64,000 nucleotides of DNA. Origin: a virus. Its lineage: Duplodnaviria; Caudoviricetes. Below, piece after piece: positions 49,101-64,000 of the stretch. Within the stretch, counting starts at the first letter, position 1. Every line of letters starts with the position of its first letter. Position numbers and translations under genes: made by a program. The stretch covers positions 96,001 to 160,000 of IMG/VR virus record IMGVR_UViG_3300014205_000177, one strand, 5' to 3'. The notes under the pieces were generated by a model that made no database searches, was not told the DNA's origin, and saw nothing but the letters and a program-made list of their open reading frames with translations.

Positions 49101-49149
49101 TTACCATCTCCATTAATTGAATATCGTCTTCTGCAAAATTCTGTATCAT
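46120..49149 (-). CDS. terL: Terminase large subunit, intein-containing
   Basis: Walker A RGSGK|T split by an intein; IRGARF, VIVDE Walker B, GIDPAR, DSGGGG and KDRYSA nuclease motifs. Confidence 0.95.
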   Translation of the reverse strand: MIQNFAEDDIQLMEMVRIYKEDPAAAARDLLGIDLAPHQRIALRAMWDCNNVIMVLSRGSGKCIVGDSMCLLNSGFHEIAGLHKSEEFGLKESVIQMYGENGFKNTSHTYKNEPKQIYRTRTCHGYEIKSVDKHMIRCFENGNITWKRNDDIKIGDYVVINRDDKYEFSGEFNWISEIEGYMIGALIGDGCFVKSGGVGFTNTDEDIINIFRENYKKLGACKFSELKDKIEFSLNFGGAYRDKEFFSKYKLKKVKSKEKEIPESILQSNKKVLASFISGYADTDGSVTDRGVEFSSCSEKLLKQLQVVLLSFGIISSIHYKSVKYIYKGIESRRDSWRLFIYSNSAKIFAEKIGFKCNRKQDKLETLLLNKKFNPNKDVIPFLSDILISVKNDYLKNKVEYKLDRKSRTLLQNTHLLEYNPSYRFLNEFLELTKDCSDSENWKKLKDISEKNYFFDIVVEKEILPEEHTYDVHIPDDHTFISNGFISHNTFIDAVFAILRALLFPGEKVGIFGASFRQSKFVFSEIERIYETSLLLRDCCEKKPTKMTDMCYLQFKSVCNKPGSVIQALPIGDGGTIRGARFFTVIVDEVAQVNKEVLDVVIRGMMATSKNPMEQVRFIEEQKKLLALGKINKIEKLYSNKIVLSSTSYYQYNHFWVSVKSYIDSIMEKQDRYIKLFNNNQEIPEDLQGIELRGNESGPQIPYNIMKDNNRALVAFTHNDYPEGFMNRSSIDEAKLNMPDYQFRMEYENYFPADSDGFFQRSLLDKSQLHYSFSCEKSLAKQSGFVNVMGIDPARNGDNFAIAIFTIDIAKRLIKLKRVLAYNKQPYPVMHREIRNLIKEYNITEFAMDSGGGGQTIRDLLADSKTLSVGETPILQRGFEEHRFMKGNRMLELVEFSRYEWVHNANHNLLLSLQNGTLLFPCEKGLLTNCHDEESTEDELMYKQILETMNEIQNIVVTLTPGSGRMHWDTPQKKQRKDRYSAVLIGHDLAYNYLENINKPQSLAGGFWN
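47683..48963 (-). mobile_element. Intein (427 aa) with LAGLIDADG homing endonuclease
   Basis: Begins C-IVGDS, ends TYDVHI..HTFISNGFISHN followed by Thr; IGALIGDG and ISGYADTDG motifs. Confidence 0.95.
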
Positions 49150-54852: not shown

Positions 54853-55012
54853 TCTCAACCTCCTCTTTAATGCTTGCAAGGGTTCTTTGAAATTCTTTCT
54901 TCTCCTTGCTTCCGCATTTTGGACAAATGTTGGAGTCTGTATAAATATTTTTACATTTTATACATGTGAATGTTTTTTTATAAATTTTACCAGTAGTCTT
55001 TTGATATTCCAT
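54836..55012 (-). CDS. Small Zn-ribbon protein (58 aa, MEYQKTTGKIYKKTFTCIKC..CPKCGS)
   Basis: Hand-translated, below the ORF-track cutoff; CxxC..CPxCG; SD GAGG. Confidence 0.7.
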   Translation of the reverse strand: MEYQKTTGKIYKKTFTCIKCKNIYTDSNICPKCGSKEKKEFQRTLASIKEEVENGKHS

Positions 55013-55013
55013 T

Positions 55014-55235
55014 TTAACCTCTTGTTGACCTTAAAATTAGGTCTAAATCTTTTATCCCTATTACAAATCTAACATCAATTCCAGGGATTGTTAACAATAA
55101 TGAATCTGTAGAAATTTCGGTAGGATATGTACCATCTGCAAAAATATTATTGTCTTCTGCTTTTGATAATTCTAGTTCAGTATTTTGACAATTTCCATTC
55201 TCTATTGCAACACACTTAATATTAAATCTTACCAT
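55014..55235 (-). CDS. Hypothetical protein
   Basis: 73 aa, SD AGGAG, downstream of a promoter. Confidence 0.65.
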   Translation of the reverse strand: MVRFNIKCVAIENGNCQNTELELSKAEDNNIFADGTYPTEISTDSLLLTIPGIDVRFVIGIKDLDLILRSTRG

Positions 55236-55258
55236 AAAATCTCCTTGTTATAAAACAT

Positions 55259-55286
55259 ATTATAGCATAAATAAATAATATTTCAA
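55259..55286 (-). promoter_or_regulatory. Host sigma-70-type promoter driving the phage sigma operon
   Basis: TTGAAA-N16 (ending TGC)-TATAAT. Confidence 0.7.
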
Positions 55287-55496
55287 TTTTTTTAAATAAA
55301 ATACTTGACATTTTTATTGAACATGCTTCACTTTTATTTTTAAGGATAAACTTTAAACATTTTGTTTTATAAATCTATACAACAATGTTATAATCAAATT
55401 TTAACTACATAGAACGAACGCTATTTAATTTTTTGTTAAGATATGACTCTTTGCCCATTATTGTTGTTTTGGTGGTCTTATTTTTCTTTTATTTGA

Positions 55497-55830
55497 TTCT
55501 AGTTAATACTTTACTAGTTTATTTATCTAGTAATTATATTTACCAGTATAAATTACTTACTAGTATAATCTTCTAGTATACTTTCTTTATTGGACTATGC
55601 TATTTAGTGCGTGTATGTGATTATACTAGATAAGTATACCGCACATTACACGTTATTACTAACTAGTTAATTAATTATACTAGTTAATACACAAACTAAT
55701 ATAGTATTCACGTTAATACGTTACTAGTAATTCTCTGATGTATTAAACTAGTAAAGTATTCACGCACACACGCACGATTATAATAATATATTAATTAATT
55801 ACTAGTATTCACGTATGTGCGCACGTAAGG
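55497..55830. repeat. CTAG/ACTAGT-rich repeat region at the strand switch, candidate replication origin
   Basis: 11 CTAG copies in 55499-55805 and three AGTATTCACG (55703, 55755, 55804); non-coding. Confidence 0.6.
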
Positions 55831-55892
55831 ATAATTAATAAAAAAACTAAAACATTAATTTTAAAAAAAATTGAAAAAAAATAAAACTTTGT

Positions 55893-55920
55893 TTGTTTTT
55901 ATTTGGTTTTATGCTATAAT
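55893..55920 (+). promoter_or_regulatory. Promoter of tRNA array 1
   Basis: TTGTTT-N16 (ending TGC)-TATAAT. Confidence 0.7.
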
Positions 55921-55963
55921 ATAAAACAGAAACAAAAATAATTTAAAAATGGTGATATTAAAA

Positions 55964-56041
55964 ATGAGAACAATGCAAGATATGACAGTGGCGACAGCCA
56001 ATACCAATCCGGAGAATTCTCCAGTGTGGTACGTCTCTTAG
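55964..56041 (+). CDS. Leader peptide 1 (MRTMQDMTVATANTNPENSPVWYVS), putative attenuator of tRNA array 1
   Basis: SD GGTGA at 55951; first 18 codons all specify amino acids of array-1 tRNAs; 3' end overlaps the antiterminator strand. Confidence 0.8.
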   Translation: MRTMQDMTVATANTNPENSPVWYVS

Positions 56042-56100
56042 TCTTTGTTTTTATTTGTAAATAATGATTTAAGAGCGAACCCTAAAAAGTTCGCTTTTTT
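56032..56100 (+). terminator. Attenuator 1: antiterminator (56032-56077) overlapping intrinsic terminator (56071-56100)
   Basis: AGCGAAC-loop-GTTCGCT-TTTTT; CGTCTCTTAGTC pairs with GATTTAAGAGCG. Confidence 0.8.
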
Positions 56101-56128
56101 GTTGATTGAAAACTTAATATAATAAAAT

Positions 56129-56221
56129 GCTAGTGTGGCTGAGTGGTCTAAAGCAGCGCACCTGTAATGCGCCGAGTTCATATCAATGGCTCCGTGGGTT
56201 CAAATCCTACCACTAGCTCCA
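56129..56221 (+). tRNA. tRNA-Thr(TGT), long variable arm, C33
   Basis: GCTAGTG/CACTAGC acceptor, GCGCA-CCTGTAA-TGCGC, TTCAAAT T-loop, CCA. Confidence 0.75.
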
Positions 56222-56301
56222 GTCTTCCGGCTTCGTAAAAACGAATATAATAACATAGCAATATGTGAAGCGGATATTCCCAGCCGGTTTTATTTTAGAA
56301 T

Positions 56302-56379
56302 GGGGCAATAGCTCAGTTGGCTTAGAGCATCTCGCTTGCACCGAGAAGGTCCAGGGTTCAATTCCCTGTTGTTCCACCA
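56302..56379 (+). tRNA. tRNA-Ala(TGC)
   Basis: TCTCG-CTTGCAC-CGAGA, G3:U70, CCA. Confidence 0.95.
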
Positions 56380-56387
56380 TTTTACGT

Positions 56388-56465
56388 TGGCTAGTAGCTC
56401 AGTTGGTAGTAAGCGTTCGCCTGTTAAGCGAAAGGTCGCACGTTCGAACCGTGCCTAGCCAGCCA
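56388..56465 (+). tRNA. tRNA-Asn(GTT)
   Basis: TTCGC-CTGTTAA-GCGAA, CCA. Confidence 0.95.
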
Positions 56466-56513
56466 ATTTTATTAACAATGTGTGTTAATATTATTCTAGT
56501 TTAAAATAATTTT

Positions 56514-56599
56514 TGCAGGGATAAGTCTCGGAAGACTGGTAAGGCTCATAACCTTATGCGGAAACGCTGAGTGGGTTCGACTCTCCACCCCTGCTACCA
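56514..56599 (+). tRNA. tRNA-Met(CAT), initiator-like, atypical body
   Basis: U1xU72 mismatch, GCAGGG/CCCTGC, TAAGG-CTCATAA-CCTTA, GCG-GAAA-CGC variable arm, CCA. Confidence 0.75.
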
Positions 56600-56667
56600 T
56601 TTCTCTACCAGAGGTAGGGATATTATAAAGGGTTATCGCTGTCCCCGTCTGACGAAACAGCGAACGT

Positions 56668-56743
56668 GGCTCGTATGGATAATGGCTATCCACAAGTATC
56701 ATAAACTTGTTTAAGGTGGGTTCGATTCCCCCACGAGCTACCA
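56668..56743 (+). tRNA. tRNA-Met(CAT), elongator (Ile2 not excluded)
   Basis: CAAGT-ATCATAA-ACTTG, bulged T-stem, CCA. Confidence 0.8.
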
Positions 56744-56752
56744 ATTTAAAAC

Positions 56753-56828
56753 GGGGATGTAGCTCAATTAGGAGAGCATCGGTCTGTCGAACCGAAGGTC
56801 GTGGGGGCAGAACCCATCATCCTCGCCA
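56753..56828 (+). tRNA. tRNA-Asp(GTC)
   Basis: TCGGT-CTGTCGA-ACCGA, G73, T-loop GGCAGAA, CCA. Confidence 0.9.
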
Positions 56829-56836
56829 TTTTATAT

Positions 56837-56913
56837 GCTCGGTTAGCTCAATTGGCTAGAGCACTTGGTTTACACCCAAGTTGTTACAGATTCGAGTTCT
56901 GTACCGAGTACCA
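56837..56913 (+). tRNA. tRNA-Val(TAC)
   Basis: CTTGG-TTTACAC-CCAAG, CCA. Confidence 0.95.
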
Positions 56914-56922
56914 GTTTTATAT

Positions 56923-57012
56923 GGGGAGGTAGCTCAGAGGCAGAGCGTCGGGCTAGGTGGTGAAAACCACCGAATCTGAAGGTCGCTGGTTCGAATCCAG
57001 CCTTCCCCACCA
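56923..57012 (+). ncRNA. tRNA-like RNA with the anticodon loop replaced by a GAAA hairpin
   Basis: Canonical acceptor, D and T arms and CCA; anticodon region is CTA-GGTGGT-GAAA-ACCACC-GAA. Confidence 0.8.
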
Positions 57013-57018
57013 GTTTCG

Positions 57019-57091
57019 TTGCGAGATAATATAATTTTTAGTACCCCATTGTGGATGGGAAATGTTGGTGAAAATCCAACTCTCGCAACCA
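57019..57091 (+). tRNA. tRNA-His(GTG), degenerate
   Basis: CCCA-TTGTGGA-TGGG; 8-bp acceptor with U-1:A73; weak D arm; T-loop TGAAAAT; CCA. Confidence 0.7.
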
Positions 57092-57116
57092 TTTTTTAAA
57101 AAAATAGAAAAGTAAT

Positions 57117-57144
57117 TTGTTTTTGAAGTAAATTATGCTATATT
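57117..57144 (+). promoter_or_regulatory. Internal promoter in tRNA array 1
   Basis: TTGTTT-N16 (ending TGC)-TATATT. Confidence 0.6.
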
Positions 57145-57235
57145 TTAAAGTATAAGAAAGTTGTTGGATAATTACCAACTGAACTCTGAGGTTATGGGAA
57201 TATCAGAGAGAGATTAACAAATAACCCGTACATAT

Positions 57236-57309
57236 CAGAGCGTGAGATAATGGTAGTCGTCCTTCCTTGGAAGAAGGGGGTGGTCGTTCGAATCGACCCG
57301 CTCTGACCA
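57236..57309 (+). tRNA. tRNA-Pro(TGG)
   Basis: CCTTC-CTTGGAA-GAAGG, C1:G72, A73, CCA. Confidence 0.9.
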
Positions 57310-57359
57310 TTTTAAATTTAACCATAGTGGTTTAAATAAAAAATAACATAGGAAAAGTT

Positions 57360-57566
57360 ATGGAAGAAGATTTAATTCCTGAAATTTGGGAAAACGGAAA
57401 GGGGAGAACAAAACCCTTTGTAAAAAGTAAGAAAAACAATTATGAAGAACCCAAAAAAAGATTTGGGATAATTGGTAAGAAAAAAGTAAAAGAAAATAGA
57501 GAACTTCAAGATATAGATGAAGTAGAAGATAAAATAAGTTCTTCTATACTTAGTAAAATTAAATAA
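57360..57566 (+). CDS. Hypothetical protein within the tRNA array
   Basis: 68 aa, SD AGGA. Confidence 0.55.
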   Translation: MEEDLIPEIWENGKGRTKPFVKSKKNNYEEPKKRFGIIGKKKVKENRELQDIDEVEDKISSSILSKIK

Positions 57567-57571
57567 TATGT

Positions 57572-57647
57572 GTCCGGTTCTTCTAGTTGGACAGGATAAG
57601 GGACCTTCACTCCCTCGACACGGGTTCGAATCCCGTACCGGATACCA
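57572..57647 (+). tRNA. tRNA-Glu(TTC), C33
   Basis: AGGGA-CCTTCAC-TCCCT, CCA. Confidence 0.9.
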
Positions 57648-57650
57648 TAA

Positions 57651-57726
57651 AGCCCTGAAGTGTAACGGCTGCACACTTGTCTTTGACACAAGTAGACTTA
57701 TGGTTCAACTCCATGCAGGGCTGCCA
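57651..57726 (+). tRNA. tRNA-Gln(TTG)
   Basis: CTTGT-CTTTGAC-ACAAG, G73, CCA. Confidence 0.9.
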
Positions 57727-57734
57727 GTTTTCGA

Positions 57735-57809
57735 GTTCCCTTAATTCAGAGGAAGAAATTATCGGTCCTAACGATAAAGTCGCTGGTTCAAGTCCAGCAG
57801 GGAACGCCA
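57735..57809 (+). tRNA. tRNA-Arg(CCT)
   Basis: TATCG-GTCCTAA-CGATA, A20 in D-loop, CCA. Confidence 0.9.
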
Positions 57810-57823
57810 GTTTTGTTTTATGT

Positions 57824-57907
57824 GTGCCAGTAGCTGAGAGGATAGAGCAGTGGTTTAAATTAAATATTTAAGATTGACGTGTGTTCGATTCAATGTTTCG
57901 ATGGTAT
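57824..57907 (+). pseudogene. Degenerate tRNA (Arg-like 5' half)
   Basis: GTGCCAGTAGCTGAGAGGATAGAGCA and GTTCGATTC remain; anticodon arm, T-stem and CCA are decayed. Confidence 0.55.
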
Positions 57908-57927
57908 TATATAAAAAGGAGTTTTAT

Positions 57928-58906
57928 ATGAAAGCCATTGAAATAGATTGGAAATTAGTTCAGGAATACCATAATAATGAGCACTGCTTGAGTGATGTCA
58001 TGAAAAATTTTAAGGTTTCAAGAGCATCCATAGATACAGCGGTAAAACATGGATGCTTTGTTAAAAAATATTTTAAACAAGAACACACTGAGGAAACAAA
58101 GAAGGCAATATCTGAAAAAAGGAAAAAATGGTTGGCAGACAATCCAGATAAACATGTATGGAAAAGGAAGGGAAAATTCAAATCTGAACCATGCGAAGTA
58201 TTAAAGAAAAAAACTTGAAGAAAATGGAGTTAGTTTTTATCCAGAATTTTCACCAATAGAAAGCCATTCATTCTCTTTAGATATAGCTTTTCCAAAAGAT
58301 AAGTTTGGCATAGAAATAAATGGAAACCAGCACTATGAAAGAGACGGTAGACTAAAGGATTATTATCAGAAACGACATGATTTAATCGTTGCAGATGGTT
58401 GGGAACTATTGGAAATACCTTGTGCTATGGTTTGGAACAAGGAGTTTATTGATGGTTTAATAGAATCACTTAAAACTAAGGTCTGCGGTTTTGAGTATAA
58501 AGAACAAGTGGAAGAATATAATAAAAAGAAAAGAGAAAAGTATATTTGCCCGACTTGTGACAATAGAAAGAGCAAAAACTCGATGCTTTGTAGAAAGTGT
58601 TCTTTTAAGCCGAAAGTAAAAAAGCAAGTAGTCAGAATTTTTGTAAATAAAAACCATATGTGTCCGAATTGTAAAAACGCTAAAGATGCAAAAGCGGTTT
58701 TATGTAAGGAATGCTTTAGTTTGTCAAAGAGGAAAGTTGAAAGACCAAATAAGGAAGAGTTGGAAAAATTGGTCAAAGAGTTATCGATGACTAAGATAGG
58801 CAAGATGTTCGGAGTTAGCGACAATGCCGTAAAAAAATGGTGTAAAATTTATGAAATAGAATTAGGAGACAGACGAGGGTACTGGGCAAAGATTTATGCA
58901 AGGTGA
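57928..58906 (+). pseudogene. Free-standing homing-type endonuclease (Vsr/DUF559-like PD-(D/E)XK domain, Zn ribbons, HTH) split by a +1 frameshift at A7 (58207-58213)
   Basis: ATG 57928 with SD AAGGAG; NUMOD3-like HTEETKKAIS; +1 frame continues KLEENG..SLDIAFP..GIEINGNQHY..GWELLEIP into ORF 58409-58906. Confidence 0.8.
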
Positions 58907-58914
58907 TTTAACAT

Positions 58915-58989
58915 GGTCTCATAGCTTAACGGATAAAGTTCGTGTCTTCTAAACACGCCATTCGGGTTCAATTCCCGATGAGACCTCCA
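58915..58989 (+). tRNA. tRNA-Arg(TCT)
   Basis: CGTGT-CTTCTAA-ACACG, CCA. Confidence 0.95.
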
Positions 58990-59010
58990 ATTTTAAAAAA
59001 GGAATTTTTT

Positions 59011-59268
59011 ATGAAAAGAGCTAGACCTATTTACTCACTAGGGCAGTATTATAGAAACAGGGGCACTCATAAACGAGAAGAAGCAATAAGCGAAGACGAA
59101 GAACATAGTCCATTAACTAGAGCCAAGAGAGAATCAAATTTACCTGACTCTTGGGATACAAAAAAGATTTGCAGACCTAAGACATGGAAGAGGAGATGCA
59201 AGAAAGCAAAACAGTGGATGAAACATTTTATGACAGATTTAGAAAAGAAATTTATAAGAGGAGAATAA
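59011..59268 (+). CDS. Small basic hypothetical protein (LPDSWD..KTWK..KQW)
   Basis: Start moved to ATG 59011 (SD AAGGA) because the track start lies inside tRNA-Arg. Confidence 0.65.
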   Translation: MKRARPIYSLGQYYRNRGTHKREEAISEDEEHSPLTRAKRESNLPDSWDTKKICRPKTWKRRCKKAKQWMKHFMTDLEKKFIRGE

Positions 59269-59271
59269 ACG

Positions 59272-59376
59272 ATGAGTGGAAAAGGATGTAAGAGAAGACC
59301 TCAACAGATAAGCGAAGAAAAAATGCAAAGCAATTGGGAAAAAGCATTTAACAAAGGAAATAAAAAGAAAAAATGA
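59272..59376 (+). CDS. Small phage protein (34 aa, MSGKGCKRRPQQISEEKMQSNWEKAF...)
   Basis: SD AGGAG; stop overlaps the next ATG; GKGxxRRP..NWxxxF pattern. Confidence 0.6.
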   Translation: MSGKGCKRRPQQISEEKMQSNWEKAFNKGNKKKK

Positions 59377-59960
59377 GTGAAGTATTGGTTTTAAACAAGC
59401 TATGGCAACCAGTTAAAGTTATTAACGTATGGGATGCAATTTGCAAAGTATATCAAGATAAAGCTTCTTTTTTAGATGCTAATTATGTTATGCATAATTG
59501 GGAATCTTGGGTTATATCATGGAAAGATGCAGAAATTCATGCAAAAGATATGATACATGGTTCATCTTGTTCTATTAGAAAACCAACTGTAATTGTTTTA
59601 AAAAACTACAGTGGGTATGTTTTTAAAAAACCAAAGATGAGTAGGCGTAACATTTACTTAAGGGATGCAAACCAGTGCCAATATTGTGGTATAACATACG
59701 AAACAAAGAAACTAAATATAGACCATATTATACCTAAATCTCATGGGGGAAGAACTCAATGGACTAATGTAGTAGTTTCATGTATAAAATGTAATAGTTT
59801 TAAAGCAGATAGAACTCCTGAACAGGCAGGAATGAAACTTTTAAGAAAGCCAAAAGCTCCTACCTGGAAAGATGTTAACATGGAAGCTTTTCAAAGAAAT
59901 TATTCTAATTGGCACGGTCTGTTAAATGACATGTACTGGAATGTTACTTTAGAAAAATAG
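59373..59960 (+). CDS. HNH endonuclease (McrA-like)
   Basis: VLVLN..SRRNIYLRDANQCQYCG..NIDHIIPKSHGG..WTNVVVSCIKCN..K.DRTPEQAGM. Confidence 0.9.
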   Translation: MSEVLVLNKLWQPVKVINVWDAICKVYQDKASFLDANYVMHNWESWVISWKDAEIHAKDMIHGSSCSIRKPTVIVLKNYSGYVFKKPKMSRRNIYLRDANQCQYCGITYETKKLNIDHIIPKSHGGRTQWTNVVVSCIKCNSFKADRTPEQAGMKLLRKPKAPTWKDVNMEAFQRNYSNWHGLLNDMYWNVTLEK

Positions 59961-59970
59961 AATTATAAGA

Positions 59971-59998
59971 TTGACAAATAAAAAAAAGATGCTATACT
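59971..59998 (+). promoter_or_regulatory. Sigma-70-type promoter
   Basis: TTGACA-N16 (ending TGC)-TATACT. Confidence 0.75.
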
Positions 59999-60039
59999 TA
60001 ATAAGTGTAGCATTTTTTATATATAAATAAGGAGATAAA

Positions 60040-60426
60040 ATGAGTGAAAAAATTGTAATGGGTAAAATGTTTTCTATTGAAAATAAAAACAAAAAAACCG
60101 GTGAAAATGAAAAATACATAGCCGTTTATGTAGAAGACGAAAGCGGAAATGAAGAAACCGAAAGGTGCTTACTATTTACGGAAATAGAGCTTTCCGACAT
60201 GGAAAAAGTTGTACTTCCATTTGTTAAGAATACAATGAAAAAAGGAAGAATTTATTCTGTTATTATAGACAAAAAAGAAACAAATCTTTTAAAAGTAGAA
60301 ACAGAACGTAATGGAAATATTATTTTTAGGGTTTCTAATTCTCAACTTAAATCGGCAGAAGAAAGGGTTAAAAGAAATCCAGAAGATGTTGAAAAGAAAG
60401 ATTTTATAACTGATTTACTTGACTAA
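60040..60426 (+). CDS. Hypothetical protein
   Basis: 128 aa, SD AAGGAG. Confidence 0.7.
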   Translation: MSEKIVMGKMFSIENKNKKTGENEKYIAVYVEDESGNEETERCLLFTEIELSDMEKVVLPFVKNTMKKGRIYSVIIDKKETNLLKVETERNGNIIFRVSNSQLKSAEERVKRNPEDVEKKDFITDLLD

Positions 60427-60435
60427 CAAGGAAAT

Positions 60436-60669
60436 ATGATGAAATTAAAAATAAAATGTCCAGAATGTAAAAGGGAACATCTTGTCACTATATCAAATGA
60501 ACAACCTATTATGGAAATTAAAAAGATAAAATGTTTATCTTGTAGTATAATTATAAAATATAGAATAGGAATAAAAAAAGAAAATACCAGTGATAGTTCT
60601 TCTAAACTTTTTGATAGTATGGGAATGTTTGGAGATGTTTTTAAAAATATTATGGGGAGTAAAAGATGA
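60436..60669 (+). CDS. Zn-ribbon protein
   Basis: CPEC..CLSC. Confidence 0.65.
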   Translation: MMKLKIKCPECKREHLVTISNEQPIMEIKKIKCLSCSIIIKYRIGIKKENTSDSSSKLFDSMGMFGDVFKNIMGSKR

Positions 60670-60992
60670 TAGGTACAATAGAAGTGGTAAATAAATATAC
60701 ATATGAAGGTGATTATATAGATATAATGAGAGGAACTCCACTTGGTAATCCATATATAGTTTCTGATTCAATGAGCAGAGAACAATCAGTTTTAAATTTT
60801 TATAAATATTTCAGAAAAGAATTTTTTAAAAAAACAGATGTATATAATGCAATAATGGAGATAGTTGAAAAGGTTAAGTCTGGAGAAAATGTAAAAATTA
60901 AATGTTGTTGTAAACCAAAATTATGCCATGGCGATATTATAAAAATTGCAATAGAAAGTATTTTAGAAAAACAAATTAGAAATAATACTTGA
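60666..60992 (+). CDS. DUF4326-like protein
   Basis: I.RGTPLGNPY..R...V..F..Y..CCCKPKLCHGDII motif. Confidence 0.8.
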   Translation: MIGTIEVVNKYTYEGDYIDIMRGTPLGNPYIVSDSMSREQSVLNFYKYFRKEFFKKTDVYNAIMEIVEKVKSGENVKIKCCCKPKLCHGDIIKIAIESILEKQIRNNT

Positions 60993-61016
60993 TTTTTAAA
61001 AATATTATGCTATAGT
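60989..61016 (+). promoter_or_regulatory. Promoter of the PTH2-like operon
   Basis: TTGATT-N16 (ending TGC)-TATAGT. Confidence 0.65.
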
Positions 61017-61066
61017 TAATATTATAAAATTTCTTATTATGAGAAATTAAAAAAAAGAGGTAAAAA

Positions 61067-61141
61067 ATGATGTAGAATAATAAATCTCCATAACGTGTTT
61101 CTTTGTTTTAATGATTTTAATAATAATAATAAACAAAGGAG
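61067..61141 (+). promoter_or_regulatory. Mini-leader ATG ATG TAG (read-through MM*NNKSP*) plus SD-sequestering hairpin
   Basis: SD GAGG at 61057; TTTCTTTGTTT (61098-61108) pairs with AAACAAAGGAG (61131-61141). Confidence 0.55.
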
Positions 61142-61147
61142 AGTATA

Positions 61148-61522
61148 ATGAATACTTTAAGAAACACGAACGAAGAAGTAATAGATTTGAAGAAAGAGGA
61201 ATATAAGAAGAATATTAAAAGGATGAAGGCTAACGTTAAACTGGTGTCAAATAACATAAAAGAAATGAAAGAAGAATTAAAGACTAAGCAAAAAAAAGGT
61301 GATTATAAAAGTTGGTCTTTAATGAGTGATTTAAATTCTTATAAAAATGATGTCAGAAATACACATATAGCTTATGCTATGGCAAAAGGGAGAGTCTACC
61401 AAAAAATTGAGTCAAAAGTTAGAGATAACAATGAACCAAACTGGTGGGCAATAAAGGCAAATATAGAAAATTTCTTCGGAAAGAAATTTGAAATTGTTGA
61501 CTTCAAGGTAAACTTTCTATGA
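61148..61522 (+). CDS. Hypothetical protein (R..HIAY.M.KGR.Y..IE motif)
   Basis: 124 aa, SD AAGGAG; coupled to the next gene by ATGA overlap. Confidence 0.7.
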   Translation: MNTLRNTNEEVIDLKKEEYKKNIKRMKANVKLVSNNIKEMKEELKTKQKKGDYKSWSLMSDLNSYKNDVRNTHIAYAMAKGRVYQKIESKVRDNNEPNWWAIKANIENFFGKKFEIVDFKVNFL

Positions 61523-61821
61523 AAAAGGTATTTATAATAACCAGGAAAGACCTTGAAAATGGAGCAAGAATAGTTCAGTCTGTTCATTCATTCCATGAGT
61601 TGGCAAGAAAAAATGAAGAAATATTGAATCAGGTATATAATACAATATGTTACAAAATAGAAGACGAACTATCATTAAAAGAAGTTTCTGAGAGGATAGC
61701 AAGTAATCTAAACGAAAAAGAATATGCATGGTTCAGAGAAACAGATTACAATAATCAATTGACCTCTTTTGCAGTCTTTACAAACAAGAAAGAGCTGTTT
61801 AAAGGTTTAAGATTGGCGTAA
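61519..61821 (+). CDS. Peptidyl-tRNA hydrolase type 2 (PTH2)-like protein
   Basis: KVFIITRKDL..G..IVQSVHS..FRETD...QLTS..LFKGLRL resembles the PTH2 fold signature. Confidence 0.7.
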   Translation: MKKVFIITRKDLENGARIVQSVHSFHELARKNEEILNQVYNTICYKIEDELSLKEVSERIASNLNEKEYAWFRETDYNNQLTSFAVFTNKKELFKGLRLA

Positions 61822-61827
61822 TAAATA

Positions 61828-61855
61828 GGGAGGAGTAAATCCTCCCATTATTTTA
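61828..61855 (+). terminator. Probable terminator hairpin
   Basis: GGGAGGA-GTAAA-TCCTCCC followed by ATTATTTT. Confidence 0.55.
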
Positions 61856-61871
61856 TAAAAAATGGAGAAAA

Positions 61872-62342
61872 ATGAGCAATAAAGAAAATTATTTTTTAGA
61901 CCTAGCACTTAGAAGTGCTCATCAAGGTTCCTGTACAAGAAGAAACTACGGAGCAATTATAGTAAACGAGAAAAAGCATATAGTAGCAACTGGTTATACA
62001 GGAAATGTATCAGGAGAAGAGCACTGTAATAGTCTTGGAATTTGCTGGAGAAAAGAGAATAATATTCCAAGTGGAACCTCCTACGAACGCTGTAAATCAA
62101 TACATGCCGAACAGAATGCGTTAATTCAAGCCGGTAAAGAATCTTATGGTTCTGTAATATATATTGCCGGATATGATGTAGAAACAGGAAGGGAAATAGC
62201 TGGTATACCTTGCTTTATTTGTGCAAAACTAATTGTTAATGCTGGAATATCTTCTATTATATATAGAGATACATCTTTAGTGTTCAGGAAGGGTCCAGTT
62301 GCCCATTATCGTGAACTAGAAAGAAAAATATTTGGAAAATAA
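61872..62342 (+). CDS. dCMP/cytidine deaminase family protein
   Basis: SCTRRNYGAIIV..ATGY.G..HAEQNA..PCFIC. Confidence 0.9.
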   Translation: MSNKENYFLDLALRSAHQGSCTRRNYGAIIVNEKKHIVATGYTGNVSGEEHCNSLGICWRKENNIPSGTSYERCKSIHAEQNALIQAGKESYGSVIYIAGYDVETGREIAGIPCFICAKLIVNAGISSIIYRDTSLVFRKGPVAHYRELERKIFGK

Positions 62343-62354
62343 TAGTTTATGGTG

Positions 62355-62382
62355 TTGTTTTTTTATAAAGTAATGCTATAAT
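62355..62382 (+). promoter_or_regulatory. Promoter of tRNA array 2
   Basis: TTGTTT-N16 (ending TGC)-TATAAT. Confidence 0.7.
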
Positions 62383-62522
62383 ATAATCAACAGCCACCGA
62401 TATAGAAATATACGGTAATGTATAGCTCATCTGCCAGGTGTAGAGTGAGTTTCCGAGAATGACGATGACAAAATTCAAAGTTGTTCTCCGTTTTTAAAAA
62501 AAAATAAAAGGAATTATATTAA

Positions 62523-62594
62523 ATGATGAACGTTTTTAAAAAGATTAGTTTTGGTCGTTGGGGTTTTAAACCTCACGTCCGTCTATTCTTGTAA
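62523..62594 (+). CDS. Leader peptide 2 (MMNVFKKISFGRWGFKPHVRLFL), putative attenuator of tRNA array 2
   Basis: SD AAAGGA at 62507; codons 4-13 include a codon for each of the 8 downstream tRNAs; 3' end overlaps the antiterminator strand. Confidence 0.85.
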   Translation: MMNVFKKISFGRWGFKPHVRLFL

Positions 62595-62654
62595 CGTTTA
62601 TCGTTAGTTGTTGGAGAAGTAGGCGGACTAGAAATAGTTCGCCTTTTTGTTTTT
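62577..62654 (+). terminator. Attenuator 2: antiterminator (62577-62628) overlapping intrinsic terminator (62621-62654)
   Basis: AGGCGGACTA-GAAA-TAGTTCGCCT-TTTTGTTTTT; GTCCGTCTA pairs with TAGGCGGAC and TTCTT with GAGAA. Confidence 0.85.
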
Positions 62655-62656
62655 AT

Positions 62657-62732
62657 GGGTTGATAGCAAACGTGGTCAATGCATACCGTTGAAGCCGGTA
62701 CTACTTCGGTTCAATTCCGAATCAACCCACCA
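62657..62732 (+). tRNA. tRNA-Phe(GAA)
   Basis: TACCG-TTGAAGC-CGGTA, CCA. Confidence 0.9.
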
Positions 62733-62742
62733 GTTTATGTGA

Positions 62743-62833
62743 GCAAGGTTGTCTTAGCGGCTTGAGAAACCGACTTTTAATCGGTCAGAGGGTAATGCCT
62801 CGTAGGTGGGTTCGACTCCCACACCTTGCACCA
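62743..62833 (+). tRNA. tRNA-Lys(TTT), long variable arm
   Basis: ACCGA-CTTTTAA-TCGGT; GAGG..CCTC variable stem; CCA. Confidence 0.85.
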
Positions 62834-62844
62834 TTTTATAGTAT

Positions 62845-62929
62845 GCGTCGATGTCATAGCGGTTGTGAGGCTGACTCTTAATCAGTGAGAGAAATCTCTA
62901 GGTGGGTTCAACTCCCACTCGGCGCACCA
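62845..62929 (+). tRNA. tRNA-Lys(CTT), long variable arm
   Basis: GCTGA-CTCTTAA-TCAGT; GAGA-GAAA-TCTC variable stem; CCA. Confidence 0.85.
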
Positions 62930-62941
62930 AGTTTTTTGTGT

Positions 62942-63015
62942 ATGTCTATAGTTCAATAGTAGAACGGGAGTCTCCAAAACTCTTGACGAGGGGGCAGTAC
63001 CTTCTAGACATGCCA
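62942..63015 (+). tRNA. tRNA-Trp(CCA)
   Basis: GGAGT-CTCCAAA-ACTCT, G73, T-loop GGCAGTA, CCA. Confidence 0.9.
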
Positions 63016-63024
63016 GTTTTATAT

Positions 63025-63100
63025 GCGCTGTTAGCTCAGTTGGAAGAGCCCAAAAATACGAATTTTGAGGTCGGGGATTCGAATTCTCCACGGCGCACCA
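63025..63100 (+). tRNA. tRNA-Arg(ACG)
   Basis: CAAAA-ATACGAA-TTTTG, CCA. Confidence 0.9.
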
Positions 63101-63107
63101 TTTTCAT

Positions 63108-63183
63108 TGGCGTATCATATAACGGTCAATTATGTGAGACTGATATTCTCATCACCAAGGTTCAACTCCTTGTACGCCAACCA
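63108..63183 (+). tRNA. tRNA-Ile(GAT)
   Basis: TGAGA-CTGATAT-TCTCA, CCA. Confidence 0.9.
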
Positions 63184-63192
63184 GTTATACAT

Positions 63193-63268
63193 ATTCGGTT
63201 AGTTTAGCGGCTAGAACAATACGTTGACATCGTATAAATCATGGGTTCGATTCCCATACCGAATACCA
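63193..63268 (+). tRNA. tRNA-Val(GAC)
   Basis: ATACG-TTGACAT-CGTAT, CCA. Confidence 0.95.
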
Positions 63269-63276
63269 GTTTTCAT

Positions 63277-63350
63277 GCGAATATAGTACAGTAGCAGTAT
63301 TTGACGTTGCCAACGTTAGGACGAGGGTGCAATTCCCTCTATTCGCACCA
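63277..63350 (+). tRNA. tRNA-Gly(GCC)
   Basis: TGACG-TTGCCAA-CGTTA, A73, CCA. Confidence 0.9.
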
Positions 63351-63380
63351 TTTTTTGCAACGAAAAATATAATCTTTATG

Positions 63381-63408
63381 TTGCAAAACCAAGATATTGT
63401 GCTATACT
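63381..63408 (+). promoter_or_regulatory. Promoter of the tRNA-like ncRNA
   Basis: TTGCAA-N16 (ending TGC)-TATACT. Confidence 0.7.
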
Positions 63409-63414
63409 ATCAAT

Positions 63415-63538
63415 GGCGGTTTAGAGAAAGGTTCATCGCCCTCTAACAAGGGAGGGATTGCAGTAGATTCACCGTGGAAGAAAAGTACATCAGTGAAGGA
63501 ACCAATCCAATGTTTTTTCGATAAAACAATCGCCACCA
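63415..63538 (+). ncRNA. 124-nt RNA with tRNA-like acceptor stem, T-like arm and CCA end
   Basis: GGCGGTT/AATCGCC-A-CCA; TGTTT..TTCGAT..AAACA arm; internal stems TAGAG/CTCTA, GGATTG/CAATCC, TTCAC/GTGAA. Confidence 0.65.
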
Positions 63539-63539
63539 T

Positions 63540-63567
63540 TTGACATTTATAAAAATCATGCTATTGT
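63540..63567 (+). promoter_or_regulatory. Sigma-70-type promoter
   Basis: TTGACA-N16 (ending TGC)-TATTGT. Confidence 0.65.
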
Positions 63568-63596
63568 ACCTCAACAAACTAAAAAGGAGATATGCA

Positions 63597-63995
63597 ATGT
63601 GTATCAAAATCAAGGCGATGGAAAATGGAGTAATGATTCAAAGCAGAGAAGAATATGAAGATATAATGGATATTCTATTGGATGCAGGTCTTCGGACAGT
63701 GAGTGGAAAATATTTTGGAGAATGTGACTGGTTTAATGAAACCGGAACCGAAACAGTTATAGATTTGAGAAATCTGGAGTCTATTGCATATGGTGAATAT
63801 CAGTATTTTATTGATAATGATATCCCGGTTTGTAATTTCCAGGATTTTCTTACAGAACAGGGTTTAACACCAAACGGATGCATTAGCGGTGAACAACAGA
63901 TATTTATGCGTAGGGCAAAGTTGAAATGTCCAAAAATGAAAAAGAAAGAAATCAGAAGACTTGCAAAGGCAATCGTGAGGGAGATGAACAAATGA
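63597..63995 (+). CDS. Hypothetical protein
   Basis: Start moved to ATG 63597 (SD AAGGAG). Confidence 0.65.
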   Translation: MCIKIKAMENGVMIQSREEYEDIMDILLDAGLRTVSGKYFGECDWFNETGTETVIDLRNLESIAYGEYQYFIDNDIPVCNFQDFLTEQGLTPNGCISGEQQIFMRRAKLKCPKMKKKEIRRLAKAIVREMNK

Positions 63996-64000
63996 AAGCA

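What the first reader, a model, noticed from the sequence alone, without database searches (positions are those of the whole stretch)
55893..63350. Phage tRNA arrays gated by codon-matched leader-peptide attenuators (a tRNA-depletion sensor)
Seen: both tRNA arrays share one layout: promoter, SD, 23-25 codon ORF, antiterminator whose 5' strand is the end of that ORF, overlapping intrinsic terminator, then the first tRNA. The two leaders are unrelated in sequence, yet each uses the codons of its own array and avoids most of the other's. Leader 1 has no Lys, Phe, Ile or Gly. Leader 2 has no Thr, Ala, Asp, Glu or Gln. Arg is AGA in leader 1 (tRNA-TCT in array 1) and CGT in leader 2 (tRNA-ACG in array 2). 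Established: in trp/his/thr-type attenuation, a ribosome stalled on a hungry leader codon frees the antiterminator; hosts also defend against phages by cleaving tRNAs (PrrC, PARIS/AriB, VapC-type toxins). Inference: the phage monitors many host tRNAs at once and transcribes replacements only when one runs out. I know of no description of attenuation controlling tRNA genes or sensing 8-10 tRNA species with one leader, but I could not check the literature.
Basis: partly seen in the sequence, partly recalled or inferred. Interest (0 to 1): 0.97.

Follow-up and report, generated by a model that had tools for sequence, protein, structure and literature searches.

The report
Codon-matched leader attenuators before phage tRNA arrays
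In this complete 178-kb phage genome, each of three blocks of tRNA genes sits behind a tiny translated "test" gene spelled in the codons those tRNAs read, followed by a transcription stop signal, so the phage probably makes more of a tRNA set only when ribosomes decode its codons slowly; I found no published account of this control for tRNA genes.

Summary
Both in-window arrays have the layout promoter, SD, 23-25-codon ORF, intrinsic terminator, first tRNA 12-30 nt later.

- **Match to own array:** strict-wobble cognate codons are 17/24, 15/22 and 16/23. The leaders cover 10/12, 8/8 and 11/11 of their tRNA species. This holds only in the ORF frame and only for the adjacent array. In windows drawn from real phage ORFs, p runs from 2e-3 to below 2e-5 for each leader.
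- **Relatives:** two related phages, found through a neighbouring Ro60/TROVE gene, have the same three cassettes. Their leader codons move with the tRNAs. Ile-UAU and Cys tRNAs sit in array 3 here and in array 2 there, and the ATA and TGC codons follow. His, Val-UAC and Arg behave the same way.
- **Switch:** the last ORF codons can pair with the terminator's 5' strand. This is clear in 5 of 9 leaders and weak in leader 1.

Best reading: trp/his-type ribosome-mediated attenuation, giving feedback on decoding capacity.

Caveats: there are internal promoters, one relative's leader overlaps its terminator, there is no expression data, and the link to host anticodon nucleases is untested.

This scan has already noted the same design in at least 8 other phage genomes, and I partly re-checked one of them, phiCbK. 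Seven literature searches found no publication.

The parts
55893..55920 (+). Promoter of leader 1 (TTGTTT, 16-nt spacer, extended -10 TGcTATAAT)
   Evidence: Read from the sequence. The same TTGTTT..TGnTATAnT pattern precedes all nine leaders in three genomes.
55951..55956 (+). Shine-Dalgarno (GGTGAT) of leader 1
   Evidence: It lies 7 nt before the ATG at 55964. The upstream in-frame ATG at 55949 has no SD.
55964..56041 (+). Leader ORF 1: 25 codons and a TAG stop. Codons 2-18 are 15/17 cognate to array 1.
   Evidence: 10 of 12 tRNA species of array 1 are represented. The non-cognate codons cluster in the last seven.
56071..56104 (+). Intrinsic terminator 1 (10-bp stem, 8-nt loop, T-tract)
   Evidence: stem -11.2 kcal/mol. 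Its 5' strand can pair weakly with the last codons of the ORF.
56129..58989 (+). tRNA array 1, in order: Thr-TGT, Ala-TGC, Asn-GTT, CAT, Met-CAT, Asp-GTC, Val-TAC, a tRNA-like gene with a hairpin in the anticodon loop, His-GTG (weak), Pro-TGG, Glu-TTC, Gln-TTG, Arg-CCT, Arg-TCT. Interrupted by a 68-aa ORF and a broken HNH-type gene.
   Evidence: ARAGORN, Rfam, anticodon reading.
57117..57144 (+). Internal promoter-like site in array 1 (TTGTTT, 16 nt, TGcTATATT), upstream of Pro, Glu, Gln and Arg-CCT
   Evidence: Read from the sequence. It matches the phage's own promoter consensus and counts against strict gating.
62355..62382 (+). Promoter of leader 2 (TTGTTT, 16 nt, TGcTATAAT)
62396..62505 (+). 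Structured 5' UTR before leader 2: three hairpins, the last followed by a U-run
   Evidence: strand folding, (-29.2 kcal/mol, z -4.0). Function unknown. It is absent from the relatives' leader 2.
62508..62513 (+). Shine-Dalgarno (AAGGAA) of leader 2
62523..62594 (+). Leader ORF 2: 23 codons and a TAA stop. 15/22 codons are cognate to array 2, and all 8 tRNA species are represented.
62576..62588 (+). Antiterminator 5' strand of leader 2 (codons 19-22)
   Evidence: It forms an RNA duplex of -13.9 kcal/mol with the terminator's 5' strand. Only 2/500 shuffles are as good. It is the MFE pairing when the transcript ends at the terminator loop.
62621..62654 (+). Intrinsic terminator 2 (10-bp stem, 4-nt loop, T-tract)
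   Evidence: -14.7 kcal/mol. The first tRNA starts 12 nt after the stem, which leaves no room for a promoter.
62657..63350 (+). tRNA array 2: Phe-GAA, Lys-TTT, Lys-CTT, Trp-CCA, Arg-ACG, Ile-GAT, Val-GAC, Gly-GCC

Best explanation
Each tRNA array is the regulated part of a ribosome-mediated (trp/his-type) transcription attenuator.

Proposed sequence of events:
- A sigma-70-like phage promoter starts a transcript. Its first element is a 23-25-codon ORF with a Shine-Dalgarno site.
- Codons 2 to about 18 of that ORF are drawn almost only from codons read by the tRNAs of the array that follows. There are usually one or two codons per tRNA species.
- The last four or so codons resemble the 3' strand of the terminator that lies 23-29 nt after the stop codon. 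They can therefore pair with the terminator's 5' strand and act as an antiterminator.
- If every required aminoacyl-tRNA is plentiful, the ribosome runs to the stop codon and covers the antiterminator strand. The terminator then forms and the array is not transcribed from this promoter.
- If any one of the 8-12 tRNA species is scarce, the ribosome stalls in the sensor part. The ORF end stays free and captures the terminator's 5' strand as it emerges. RNA polymerase then reads into the tRNA genes.

The net effect is negative feedback that holds decoding capacity for each codon set at a set point. It does not matter whether the shortage comes from decay of host tRNAs, from codon demand of the phage, or from host tRNA-cleaving defences.

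Shown here: the layout, the codon/anticodon match, the co-variation across relatives, and the potential alternative pairings.
Inferred: transcription starts, translation of the leaders, stalling, and the response of read-through.
For: 1. Layout. The layout is present three times in this genome and six more times in two related phages.

2. Match in this genome.
- Own-array cognate codons by strict wobble are 17/24, 15/22 and 16/23. Other arrays score only 2-5.
- Windows of real ORFs reach these values in 99/47368, 0/47698 and 16/47533 cases.
- tRNA species covered are 10/12, 8/8 and 11/11. The null gives 6e-3, 2e-4 and 0/47533. The other five frames give nothing similar.

3. All nine leaders. 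For codons 2-18, cognate counts are 15, 12, 14 (this phage), 13, 11, 10 (relative B) and 15, 12, 13 of 17 (relative A). Each has p between 1e-2 and below 2e-5.

4. Co-variation.
- Ile-TAT and Cys-GCA are in array 3 here and in array 2 in both relatives. ATA and TGC codons sit in leader 3 here and in leader 2 there.
- His is absent from B's arrays and from B's leaders.
- Val-TAC is in B's array 3, and only B's leader 3 has Val.
- AGA and CGT are absent from the sensor part (codons 2-18) of B's leaders, and B has no Arg tRNAs.
- GGT appears twice in leader 2 only here, where Gly-GCC is in array 2.

5. Geometry.
- The stop-to-terminator gap is 21-29 nt in 8/9 leaders.
- The best complement of the terminator's 5' strand lies in the last four codons in 6/9 leaders.
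- It is better than nearly all shuffles (0-13 of 500 as good) in five: OWN_2, OWN_3, B_2, B_3, A_2.
- With transcripts cut at the terminator loop, that pairing is the MFE. It is lost once the A site passes codon 15-20, which is just where the cognate codons end.

6. Position of the first tRNA. It starts 6-30 nt after the terminator in 7/9 cases, so it can only be reached by read-through.

7. Specificity. Only 11 strong plus-strand terminators exist on the contig, and three are these.

8. Cultured phage. In Caulobacter phage phiCbK, short ORFs before annotated terminators cover 9/9 and 7/7 tRNA species of the arrays behind them.
Against: - There is no expression, Term-seq or ribosome-profiling data.
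- At equilibrium, the full-length leaders keep the terminator (P 0.94-0.97) for almost every ribosome position. The switch must therefore be kinetic.
- The antiterminator helices of OWN_1, B_1, A_1 and A_3 are no better than shuffled controls.
- In relative A, leader 1 has 42 codons and its stop lies in the terminator loop. In B_2 and A_2 the antiterminator strand lies 20-42 nt before the stop, so a terminating ribosome would not cover it.
- Bypass promoters are likely. One is inside array 1 (57117-57144). Promoter-like sites of 9/12 and 10/12 with a TG extension lie between terminator and first tRNA in array 3 of relatives B and A respectively.
- Some array tRNAs are not represented in leader 1 (His-GTG, Arg-CCT).
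- The three genomes are related, so the nine cassettes are not nine independent events.
Confidence: 0.7

Rival explanations
1. The circuit is specifically an inducible counter-defence. The leaders detect cleavage of host tRNAs by anticodon nucleases (PrrC, PARIS AriB, VapC-like, retron or CRISPR-associated tRNases). They then switch on nuclease-resistant phage replacements. The mechanism is the same as the best explanation, but the selective trigger is narrower.
For: - The array carries tRNAs with unusual bodies that could resist nucleases. There are two tRNA-Lys genes with long variable arms (62743-62929) and a tRNA-like gene whose anticodon is replaced by a GNRA hairpin (56923-57012).
- Phage tRNAs that evade tRNA-targeting defences are documented (PMC10264068, listed).
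- Sensing many species at once suits an unknown attacker.
Against: - Nothing in the sequence ties the leaders to a defence system.
- The three arrays together cover all 20 amino acids. That looks like general supply rather than replacement of the few tRNAs known to be targeted.
- Plain feedback explains the same features.
Confidence: 0.3
2. The logic is inverse. Efficient translation of the leader, with a closely coupled ribosome, suppresses termination. The array is then made only when decoding works. This would be positive feedback, or a check that translation capacity is intact.
For: - In relative A, leader 1 runs into the terminator loop, so a translating ribosome would melt the stem.
- Leader 1 here and leader 3 of relative B end in TAG. 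Their read-through frames cross the terminator. These phages carry a TAG-suppressor tRNA (CTA anticodon).
Against: - In 8/9 leaders the stop lies 21-29 nt before the stem. That is beyond the roughly 12-13 nt a ribosome covers downstream of the A site.
- The ORF end mimics the terminator's 3' strand. That feature has a use only in the stall-induced model.
- TAG is not recoded genome-wide.
Confidence: 0.1
3. The short ORFs are free-standing small-protein or small-RNA genes with their own promoter and terminator. They merely lie next to the tRNA arrays, which are transcribed from other promoters. The codon match is a by-product, or serves another purpose such as a translated reporter whose output is not read-through.
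For: - Each cassette is formally a complete transcription unit.
- Leaders 2 and 3 are partly conserved as peptides between relatives A and B.
- Promoter-like sites follow the terminator in array 3 of both relatives.
Against: - Leaders 1 and 2 of this phage are not alignable with those of the relatives, yet they keep the array-specific codon make-up.
- Codons follow tRNAs when these change arrays.
- In 7/9 cases the first tRNA begins 6-30 nt after the terminator, with no room for a promoter.
- A by-product cannot explain 8/8 and 11/11 coverage.
Confidence: 0.07
4. The match is a chance coincidence of biased short ORFs in AT-rich intergenic DNA.
For: Short ORFs are common in AT-rich DNA.
Against: - Nulls for each leader run from 2e-3 to below 2e-5.
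- The signal is specific to the frame and to the array.
Confidence: 0.01

Closest known systems
Leader-peptide transcription attenuators of enterobacterial amino-acid operons (trpL, hisL, leuL, thrL, pheL, and the multivalent ilvGMEDA leader)
   Same: A promoter and a short translated leader carrying the regulatory codons. An intrinsic terminator before the regulated genes. An alternative helix that uses the terminator's 5' strand and is controlled by ribosome position. A stop codon a few tens of nt before the terminator.
   Different: - The regulated genes are tRNA genes, not biosynthetic enzymes.
- The leader samples 8-12 different tRNA species, mostly once or twice each, instead of runs of one to three amino acids.
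- The output replenishes the sensed molecule itself.
- It sits in a phage, three times per genome, each copy tuned to its own array.
pheM leader of the pheST operon (phenylalanyl-tRNA synthetase) in E. coli
   Same: Leader-peptide attenuation applied to a gene of the translation apparatus. It responds to the supply of charged tRNA. This comparison rests on my own knowledge and was not tested here.
   Different: It senses one tRNA species and controls a synthetase, not tRNA genes.
T-box riboswitches
   Same: They sense the tRNA state and control read-through of a terminator through an antiterminator.
   Different: - T-boxes bind one uncharged tRNA directly and need no translation.
- No T-box model matched here at E <= 1.
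- Here the codons lie in frame in an ORF with an SD.
Phage tRNA sets as compensation for host tRNA loss or as counter-defence (for example, phage tRNAs that evade tRNA-targeting defences, PMC10264068)
   Same: Large phage-encoded tRNA repertoires, some with unusual anticodon loops or bodies.
   Different: Those studies concern what the tRNAs do, not how their transcription is controlled. Seven full-text searches found no leader-based control of phage tRNA arrays.

Membership tests
Ribosome-mediated leader-peptide transcription attenuator | Short ORF with ribosome-binding site and start codon at the 5' end of the transcript | tested here: met
   SD plus ATG plus 23-25 codons in all three cassettes of this phage. 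The six cassettes in relatives have 23-42 codons. Translation itself is not shown.
Ribosome-mediated leader-peptide transcription attenuator | Leader enriched in codons that report on the product of the regulated genes | tested here: met
   17/24, 15/22 and 16/23 cognate codons. Coverage is 10/12, 8/8 and 11/11. The signal is frame- and array-specific. It holds in nine leaders and co-varies with array content.
Ribosome-mediated leader-peptide transcription attenuator | Intrinsic terminator between leader ORF and regulated genes | tested here: met
   Stems of 10-11 bp with a T-tract, at -11 to -16 kcal/mol. The first tRNA starts 12-30 nt downstream.
Ribosome-mediated leader-peptide transcription attenuator | No promoter that bypasses the terminator | tested here: inconclusive
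   There is no room for one before the first tRNA in 7/9 cassettes. However, a consensus promoter lies inside array 1 (57117-57144), and promoter-like sites follow the terminator in array 3 of both relatives.
Ribosome-mediated leader-peptide transcription attenuator | Antiterminator helix that excludes the terminator and depends on ribosome position (leaders 2 and 3) | tested here: met
   Duplexes of -13.9 and -12.7 kcal/mol form between the last ORF codons and the terminator's 5' strand. Only 2/500 and 1/500 shuffles are as good. This pairing is the MFE in transcripts cut at the terminator loop. It is lost when the A site passes codon 15-17.
Ribosome-mediated leader-peptide transcription attenuator | Antiterminator helix (leader 1) | tested here: inconclusive
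   Only -6.7 kcal/mol, with 157/500 shuffles as good. The pairing does appear in truncated-transcript folds.
Ribosome-mediated leader-peptide transcription attenuator | Read-through rises when the cognate charged tRNA is scarce | not testable with these tools
   This needs reporter assays, Term-seq or Ribo-seq.
T-box riboswitch | Match to the T-box covariance model (specifier loop, T-box sequence) | tested here: not met
   An Rfam scan of 55000-64000 at E <= 1 lists tRNAs and weak chance hits only, with no T-box.
Free-standing small-protein gene | Peptide sequence conserved among relatives regardless of neighbouring genes | tested here: inconclusive
   Leaders 2 and 3 of relatives A and B share short peptide stretches. 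Leaders 1 and 2 of this phage are not alignable with theirs, yet they keep the array-matched composition.

The most novel reading that the evidence does not exclude
The cassettes are multi-channel sensors of attack on the host tRNA pool. Cleavage of any one of about 30 host tRNA species by an anticodon nuclease stalls the matching leader. That switches on a block of phage tRNAs, some of which have remodelled, nuclease-resistant bodies (long-arm tRNA-Lys, a hairpin-capped decoy). Together this would be an inducible, self-limiting counter-defence, widespread in large phages.
Probability: 0.3. Interest if true: 0.95.

Novelty: new variant of a known kind. Interest (0 to 1): 0.86.

Why it matters
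- **New use of a classic mechanism.** Why large phages carry tRNA sets, and how they are expressed, has been debated for decades. Attenuation is a textbook mechanism, but it is known for amino-acid operons and for a synthetase operon (pheST), not for tRNA genes.
- **What it implies for phage biology.** A leader that samples every tRNA of the array it controls would mean that phages measure decoding capacity codon by codon. They would top it up on demand.
- **Why arrays are grouped.** Each array would be a unit with one sensor.
- **An annotation tool.** The leader gives a sequence-only read-out of which odd-looking tRNA genes are actually used. For example, leader 3 has a TAT codon for a tRNA-Tyr that neither ARAGORN nor Rfam calls.
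- **A testable link to defence.** It gives an experimental handle on the interplay between phages and tRNA-targeting defences.
- **Tractable in the lab.** The design also appears in the cultured phage phiCbK, so it can be tested in Caulobacter.

Tried and rejected
**Searches for relatives that found nothing**
- blastn of the region against 50,697 phage records gave only single-tRNA hits.
- The search for related loci in viral contigs with dCMP deaminase and with the 1051-aa protein found nothing.
- A homologue search with the 1051-aa protein returned only itself.
- A vWA alignment in genome contigs found nothing.
- A DNA pattern for long-arm tRNA-Lys in viral contigs found nothing.
- 40 genomes related to the bin gave only tRNA-level hits.
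- The nearest vWA relative (59% identity) lies on a contig with a 1.3-kb gene-free gap after the gene, but its DNA is not held. More distant vWA relatives are not syntenic.
- The route that worked was the Ro60/TROVE gene next to array 3.
- Contig handles for the relatives could not be opened.

**Other attempts and negative results**
- Equilibrium folding with a masked ribosome does not show a switch. I kept this as evidence against the model and used truncated transcripts instead.
- An unrelated 58% GC phage with a TROVE gene and 33 tRNAs (L028) shows no clear cassette.

**Ideas rejected**
- I rejected the upstream ATG at 55949 as the start of leader 1. It has no SD, and its extra codons are not cognate to array 1.
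- I rejected genome-wide TAG recoding. Reading TAG as sense adds only about 4% to the long open stretches.

Full report
**Context.** The window is bases 96001-160000 of a 177,804-bp contig with 30% GC.
- The contig has a 123-bp terminal direct repeat, which points to a complete circular assembly.
- It encodes a large terminase with an intein, and long minus-strand genes upstream.
- It carries more than 35 tRNA genes.
- It is a large phage that was binned with a 4-Mb bacterial genome.
- Its genes use strong Shine-Dalgarno sites and sigma-70-like promoters of the form TTGTTT, about 16 nt, TGnTATAAT.

**The observation.**
- Leader 1 (55964-56041) and leader 2 (62523-62594) each follow such a promoter and an SD.
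- Each ends 26-29 nt before a strong intrinsic terminator (56071-56098; 62621-62644).
- The first tRNA follows 30 and 12 nt later.
- Rfam adds tRNAs that ARAGORN missed: Asp-GTC, a second CAT tRNA and a weak His-GTG in array 1, and Trp-CCA in array 2.
- On the whole contig only 11 plus-strand sites pass a strict terminator filter, and three of them stand directly before tRNA arrays.

**An independent third case.** About 740 nt beyond the window end lies a third cassette (locus L002 = contig 159300-166000).
- Its parts are a promoter near L002:1385-1402, an SD, a 24-codon ORF at 1438-1512 and a terminator at 1540-1569.
- tRNA-Gly-TCC starts 16 nt after the terminator.
- Then follow Ser-TGA, Cys-GCA, Ser-GCT, Ile-TAT, an atypical Tyr-GTA, Ser-GGA, His-GTG, Leu-TAG, Leu-TAA (with an intron) and Leu-CAA.
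- This leader contains six Leu codons, one of each of the six kinds, and six Ser codons.
- It also has ATA twice, plus GGA, TGC, CAT and TAT.

**Statistics.**

| Measure | Leader 1 | Leader 2 | Leader 3 |
|---|---|---|---|
| Codons cognate to own array (strict wobble) | 17/24 | 15/22 | 16/23 |
| Equal-length windows of real ORFs reaching this | 99/47368 | 0/47698 | 16/47533 |
| tRNA species of own array covered | 10/12 | 8/8 | 11/11 |
| Null for that coverage | 6e-3 | 2e-4 | 0/47533 |

- The other two arrays score only 2-5 cognate codons for each leader.
- The null windows came from the contig's 165 ORFs of at least 100 codons.
- The five other frames of the same DNA give 5-11 matches and incomplete coverage.
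- The non-cognate codons sit at positions 2-3 and in the last five to seven codons.

**Structure.**
- The full leaders fold into a long hairpin that pairs the start of the ORF with the region around its stop. The terminator follows (z = -4.4 and -7.6).
- When the transcript is cut at the terminator loop, the terminator's 5' strand pairs with the last four or so codons of the ORF in all three leaders.
- That pairing disappears when a modelled ribosome has its A site beyond about codon 20, 15 and 17 respectively. These are the points where the cognate codons end.
- The antiterminator duplex is strong and specific in leaders 2 and 3: -13.9 and -12.7 kcal/mol, with 2/500 and 1/500 shuffles as good.
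- It is weak in leader 1: -6.7 kcal/mol, with 157/500 shuffles as good.
- At equilibrium the terminator wins almost regardless of ribosome position. The switch would therefore have to be kinetic, as in trp.

**Relatives.** Many searches failed (see Tried and rejected). A TROVE/Ro60 gene next to array 3 led to two syntenic phages.
- Relative A is on loci L020/L026/L027, from contigs of 164 kb and 65 kb. Relative B is on loci L022/L024, from a 54-kb contig.
- Both share this gene order: intein-bearing terminase and minus-strand genes, then array 1, HNH, DUF4326, (dCMP deaminase), array 2, vWA, array 3, TROVE.
- Both have a promoter-SD-ORF-terminator cassette before each array.
- Leaders 1 and 2 are not alignable with those of this phage.
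- For codons 2-18, the counts cognate to the own array are:
  - 15, 12 and 14 of 17 in this phage;
  - 13, 11 and 10 in B;
  - 15, 12 and 13 in A.
- Counts against other arrays are 0-7. Each own-array count has p between 1e-2 and below 2e-5 against ORFs of the same loci.

**Co-variation.** Where a tRNA species sits in a different array, the codons follow.
- Ile-TAT and Cys-GCA are in array 3 here and in array 2 in A and B. ATA and TGC lie in leader 3 here and in leader 2 there.
- No His tRNA was found in B's arrays, and there is no His codon in B's leaders.
- Val-TAC is in array 3 only in B, and only B's leader 3 has Val codons.
- B lacks Arg tRNAs, and AGA and CGT do not occur in the sensor part (codons 2-18) of its leaders.
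- Gly-GCC is in array 2 only here, and GGT occurs twice in leader 2 only here.
- One apparent exception was Tyr codons in A's leader 3. It vanished when an atypical Tyr-GTA gene was found in A's array 3, homologous to the one here.
- The terminator stems differ between genomes. In OWN_2, OWN_3, B_2, B_3 and A_2 the ORF carries a matching complement, with 0-13 of 500 shuffles as good.

**What does not fit.**
- In relative A, leader 1 has 42 codons and its stop lies in the terminator loop.
- In B_2 and A_2 the antiterminator strand lies 20-42 nt before the stop.
- A promoter of the phage's own consensus lies inside array 1 (57117-57144).
- In array 3 of relatives B and A, a site of 9/12 and 10/12 respectively, with a TG extension, lies between the terminator and the first tRNA.
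- The leaders therefore probably modulate expression rather than gate it strictly.
- His-GTG and Arg-CCT of array 1 have no codon in leader 1.
- There is no transcript or ribosome evidence.

**Mechanism.** I think the most likely mechanism is classical ribosome-mediated attenuation, acting as negative feedback on decoding capacity (confidence about 0.7).
- The defence-sensor version is a narrower case of the same mechanism. It is compatible with the odd tRNA bodies in the arrays but is untested.
- Inverse logic, free-standing small genes and chance are less likely, for the reasons given under rivals.

**Known or new.** Seven full-text searches found no account of leader-peptide control of tRNA genes.
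- The scan's own notes list the same design, confirmed by other agents, in at least eight other phage genomes. One of them is a phiCbK-like phage.
- They also record a note on this genome's three cassettes. These are unchecked AI notes.
- I tested one of them myself. In Caulobacter phage phiCbK (JX100813), short ORFs that end before annotated terminators cover 9/9 and 7/7 tRNA species of the arrays behind them. Cognate codons are 21/44 and 11/31, against 1-3 for the other arrays. A third, weaker cassette covers 2/2.
- The design is thus a new use of a known mechanism. It appears widespread in large phages and can be tested in a model system.

Noticed in passing
56923-57012: A tRNA-like gene with normal acceptor, D and T arms. 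Its anticodon loop holds a perfect 6-bp hairpin capped by GAAA. ARAGORN gives a two-base 'anticodon', or Arg-ACG with a 15-nt insert. It cannot decode as written.
   Followed up: partly
62743-62929, also 56129-56221 and 56515-56595: tRNA-Lys-TTT (91 nt) and tRNA-Lys-CTT (85 nt) have long, paired variable arms like class II tRNAs. Thr-TGT (93 nt, C at position 33) and a CAT tRNA (about 80 nt) also have long arms. Relative B has the same kind of Thr-TGT.
   Followed up: partly
L002:4649-5210 and L018:465-2099 (contig 163948-166098, beyond the window): A Ro60/TROVE protein gene (544-aa ORF, thousands of homologues). A promoter-driven RNA of about 500 nt precedes it. That RNA contains a tRNA-like module (Rfam tRNA 53.9 bits, partial) and ends in a strong terminator. 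It looks like a phage Ro-Y RNA (YrlA-type) pair next to the tRNA arrays.
   Followed up: partly
63381-63540: A promoter-like site (63381-63408) followed by a structured RNA of about 125 nt that ends in a 7-bp acceptor-like stem plus ACCA. ARAGORN and Rfam do not call it as tRNA or tmRNA.
   Followed up: no
62396-62505: The 5' UTR of leader 2 folds into three hairpins (z -4.0). The last is followed by a U-run, and one strand can pair with the leader's SD. The relatives lack this element.
   Followed up: partly
56102-56112; contig 161089 and 162224; L024:7571, 14174; L026:5845, 11134, 11600: The motif TTG[AT]TTGAAAA recurs 19-42 nt upstream of tRNA 5' ends in the arrays of all three phages. It is almost absent elsewhere, with one minus-strand copy in 178 kb. 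It is too close to the tRNAs to be an ordinary promoter for them. Function unknown.
   Followed up: partly
contig 18254-18329 (outside the window); leader 1 stop at 56039-56041: A tRNA with anticodon CTA (TAG suppressor) is encoded here and in relative A, yet TAG is not recoded genome-wide. Leader 1 ends in TAG, and its read-through frame runs across the terminator to a TAA at about 56120. The same holds for leader 3 of relative B.
   Followed up: partly
46120-49149 (minus strand): The large terminase gene carries an intein with a LAGLIDADG homing endonuclease domain. Relative B has the same.
   Followed up: no
57874-58906: An endonuclease-like gene between Arg-CCT and Arg-TCT is split into two ORFs (57874-58218 and 58409-58906). 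An intact paralogue lies after array 3 (L002:3309-4222). tRNA-Leu-TAA in array 3 carries a 191-nt intron.
   Followed up: no
55400-55860: The divergent intergenic region before leader 1 is full of short repeats (ACTAGT-containing and CACGCAC-type units). It could be an origin or a regulatory region.
   Followed up: no
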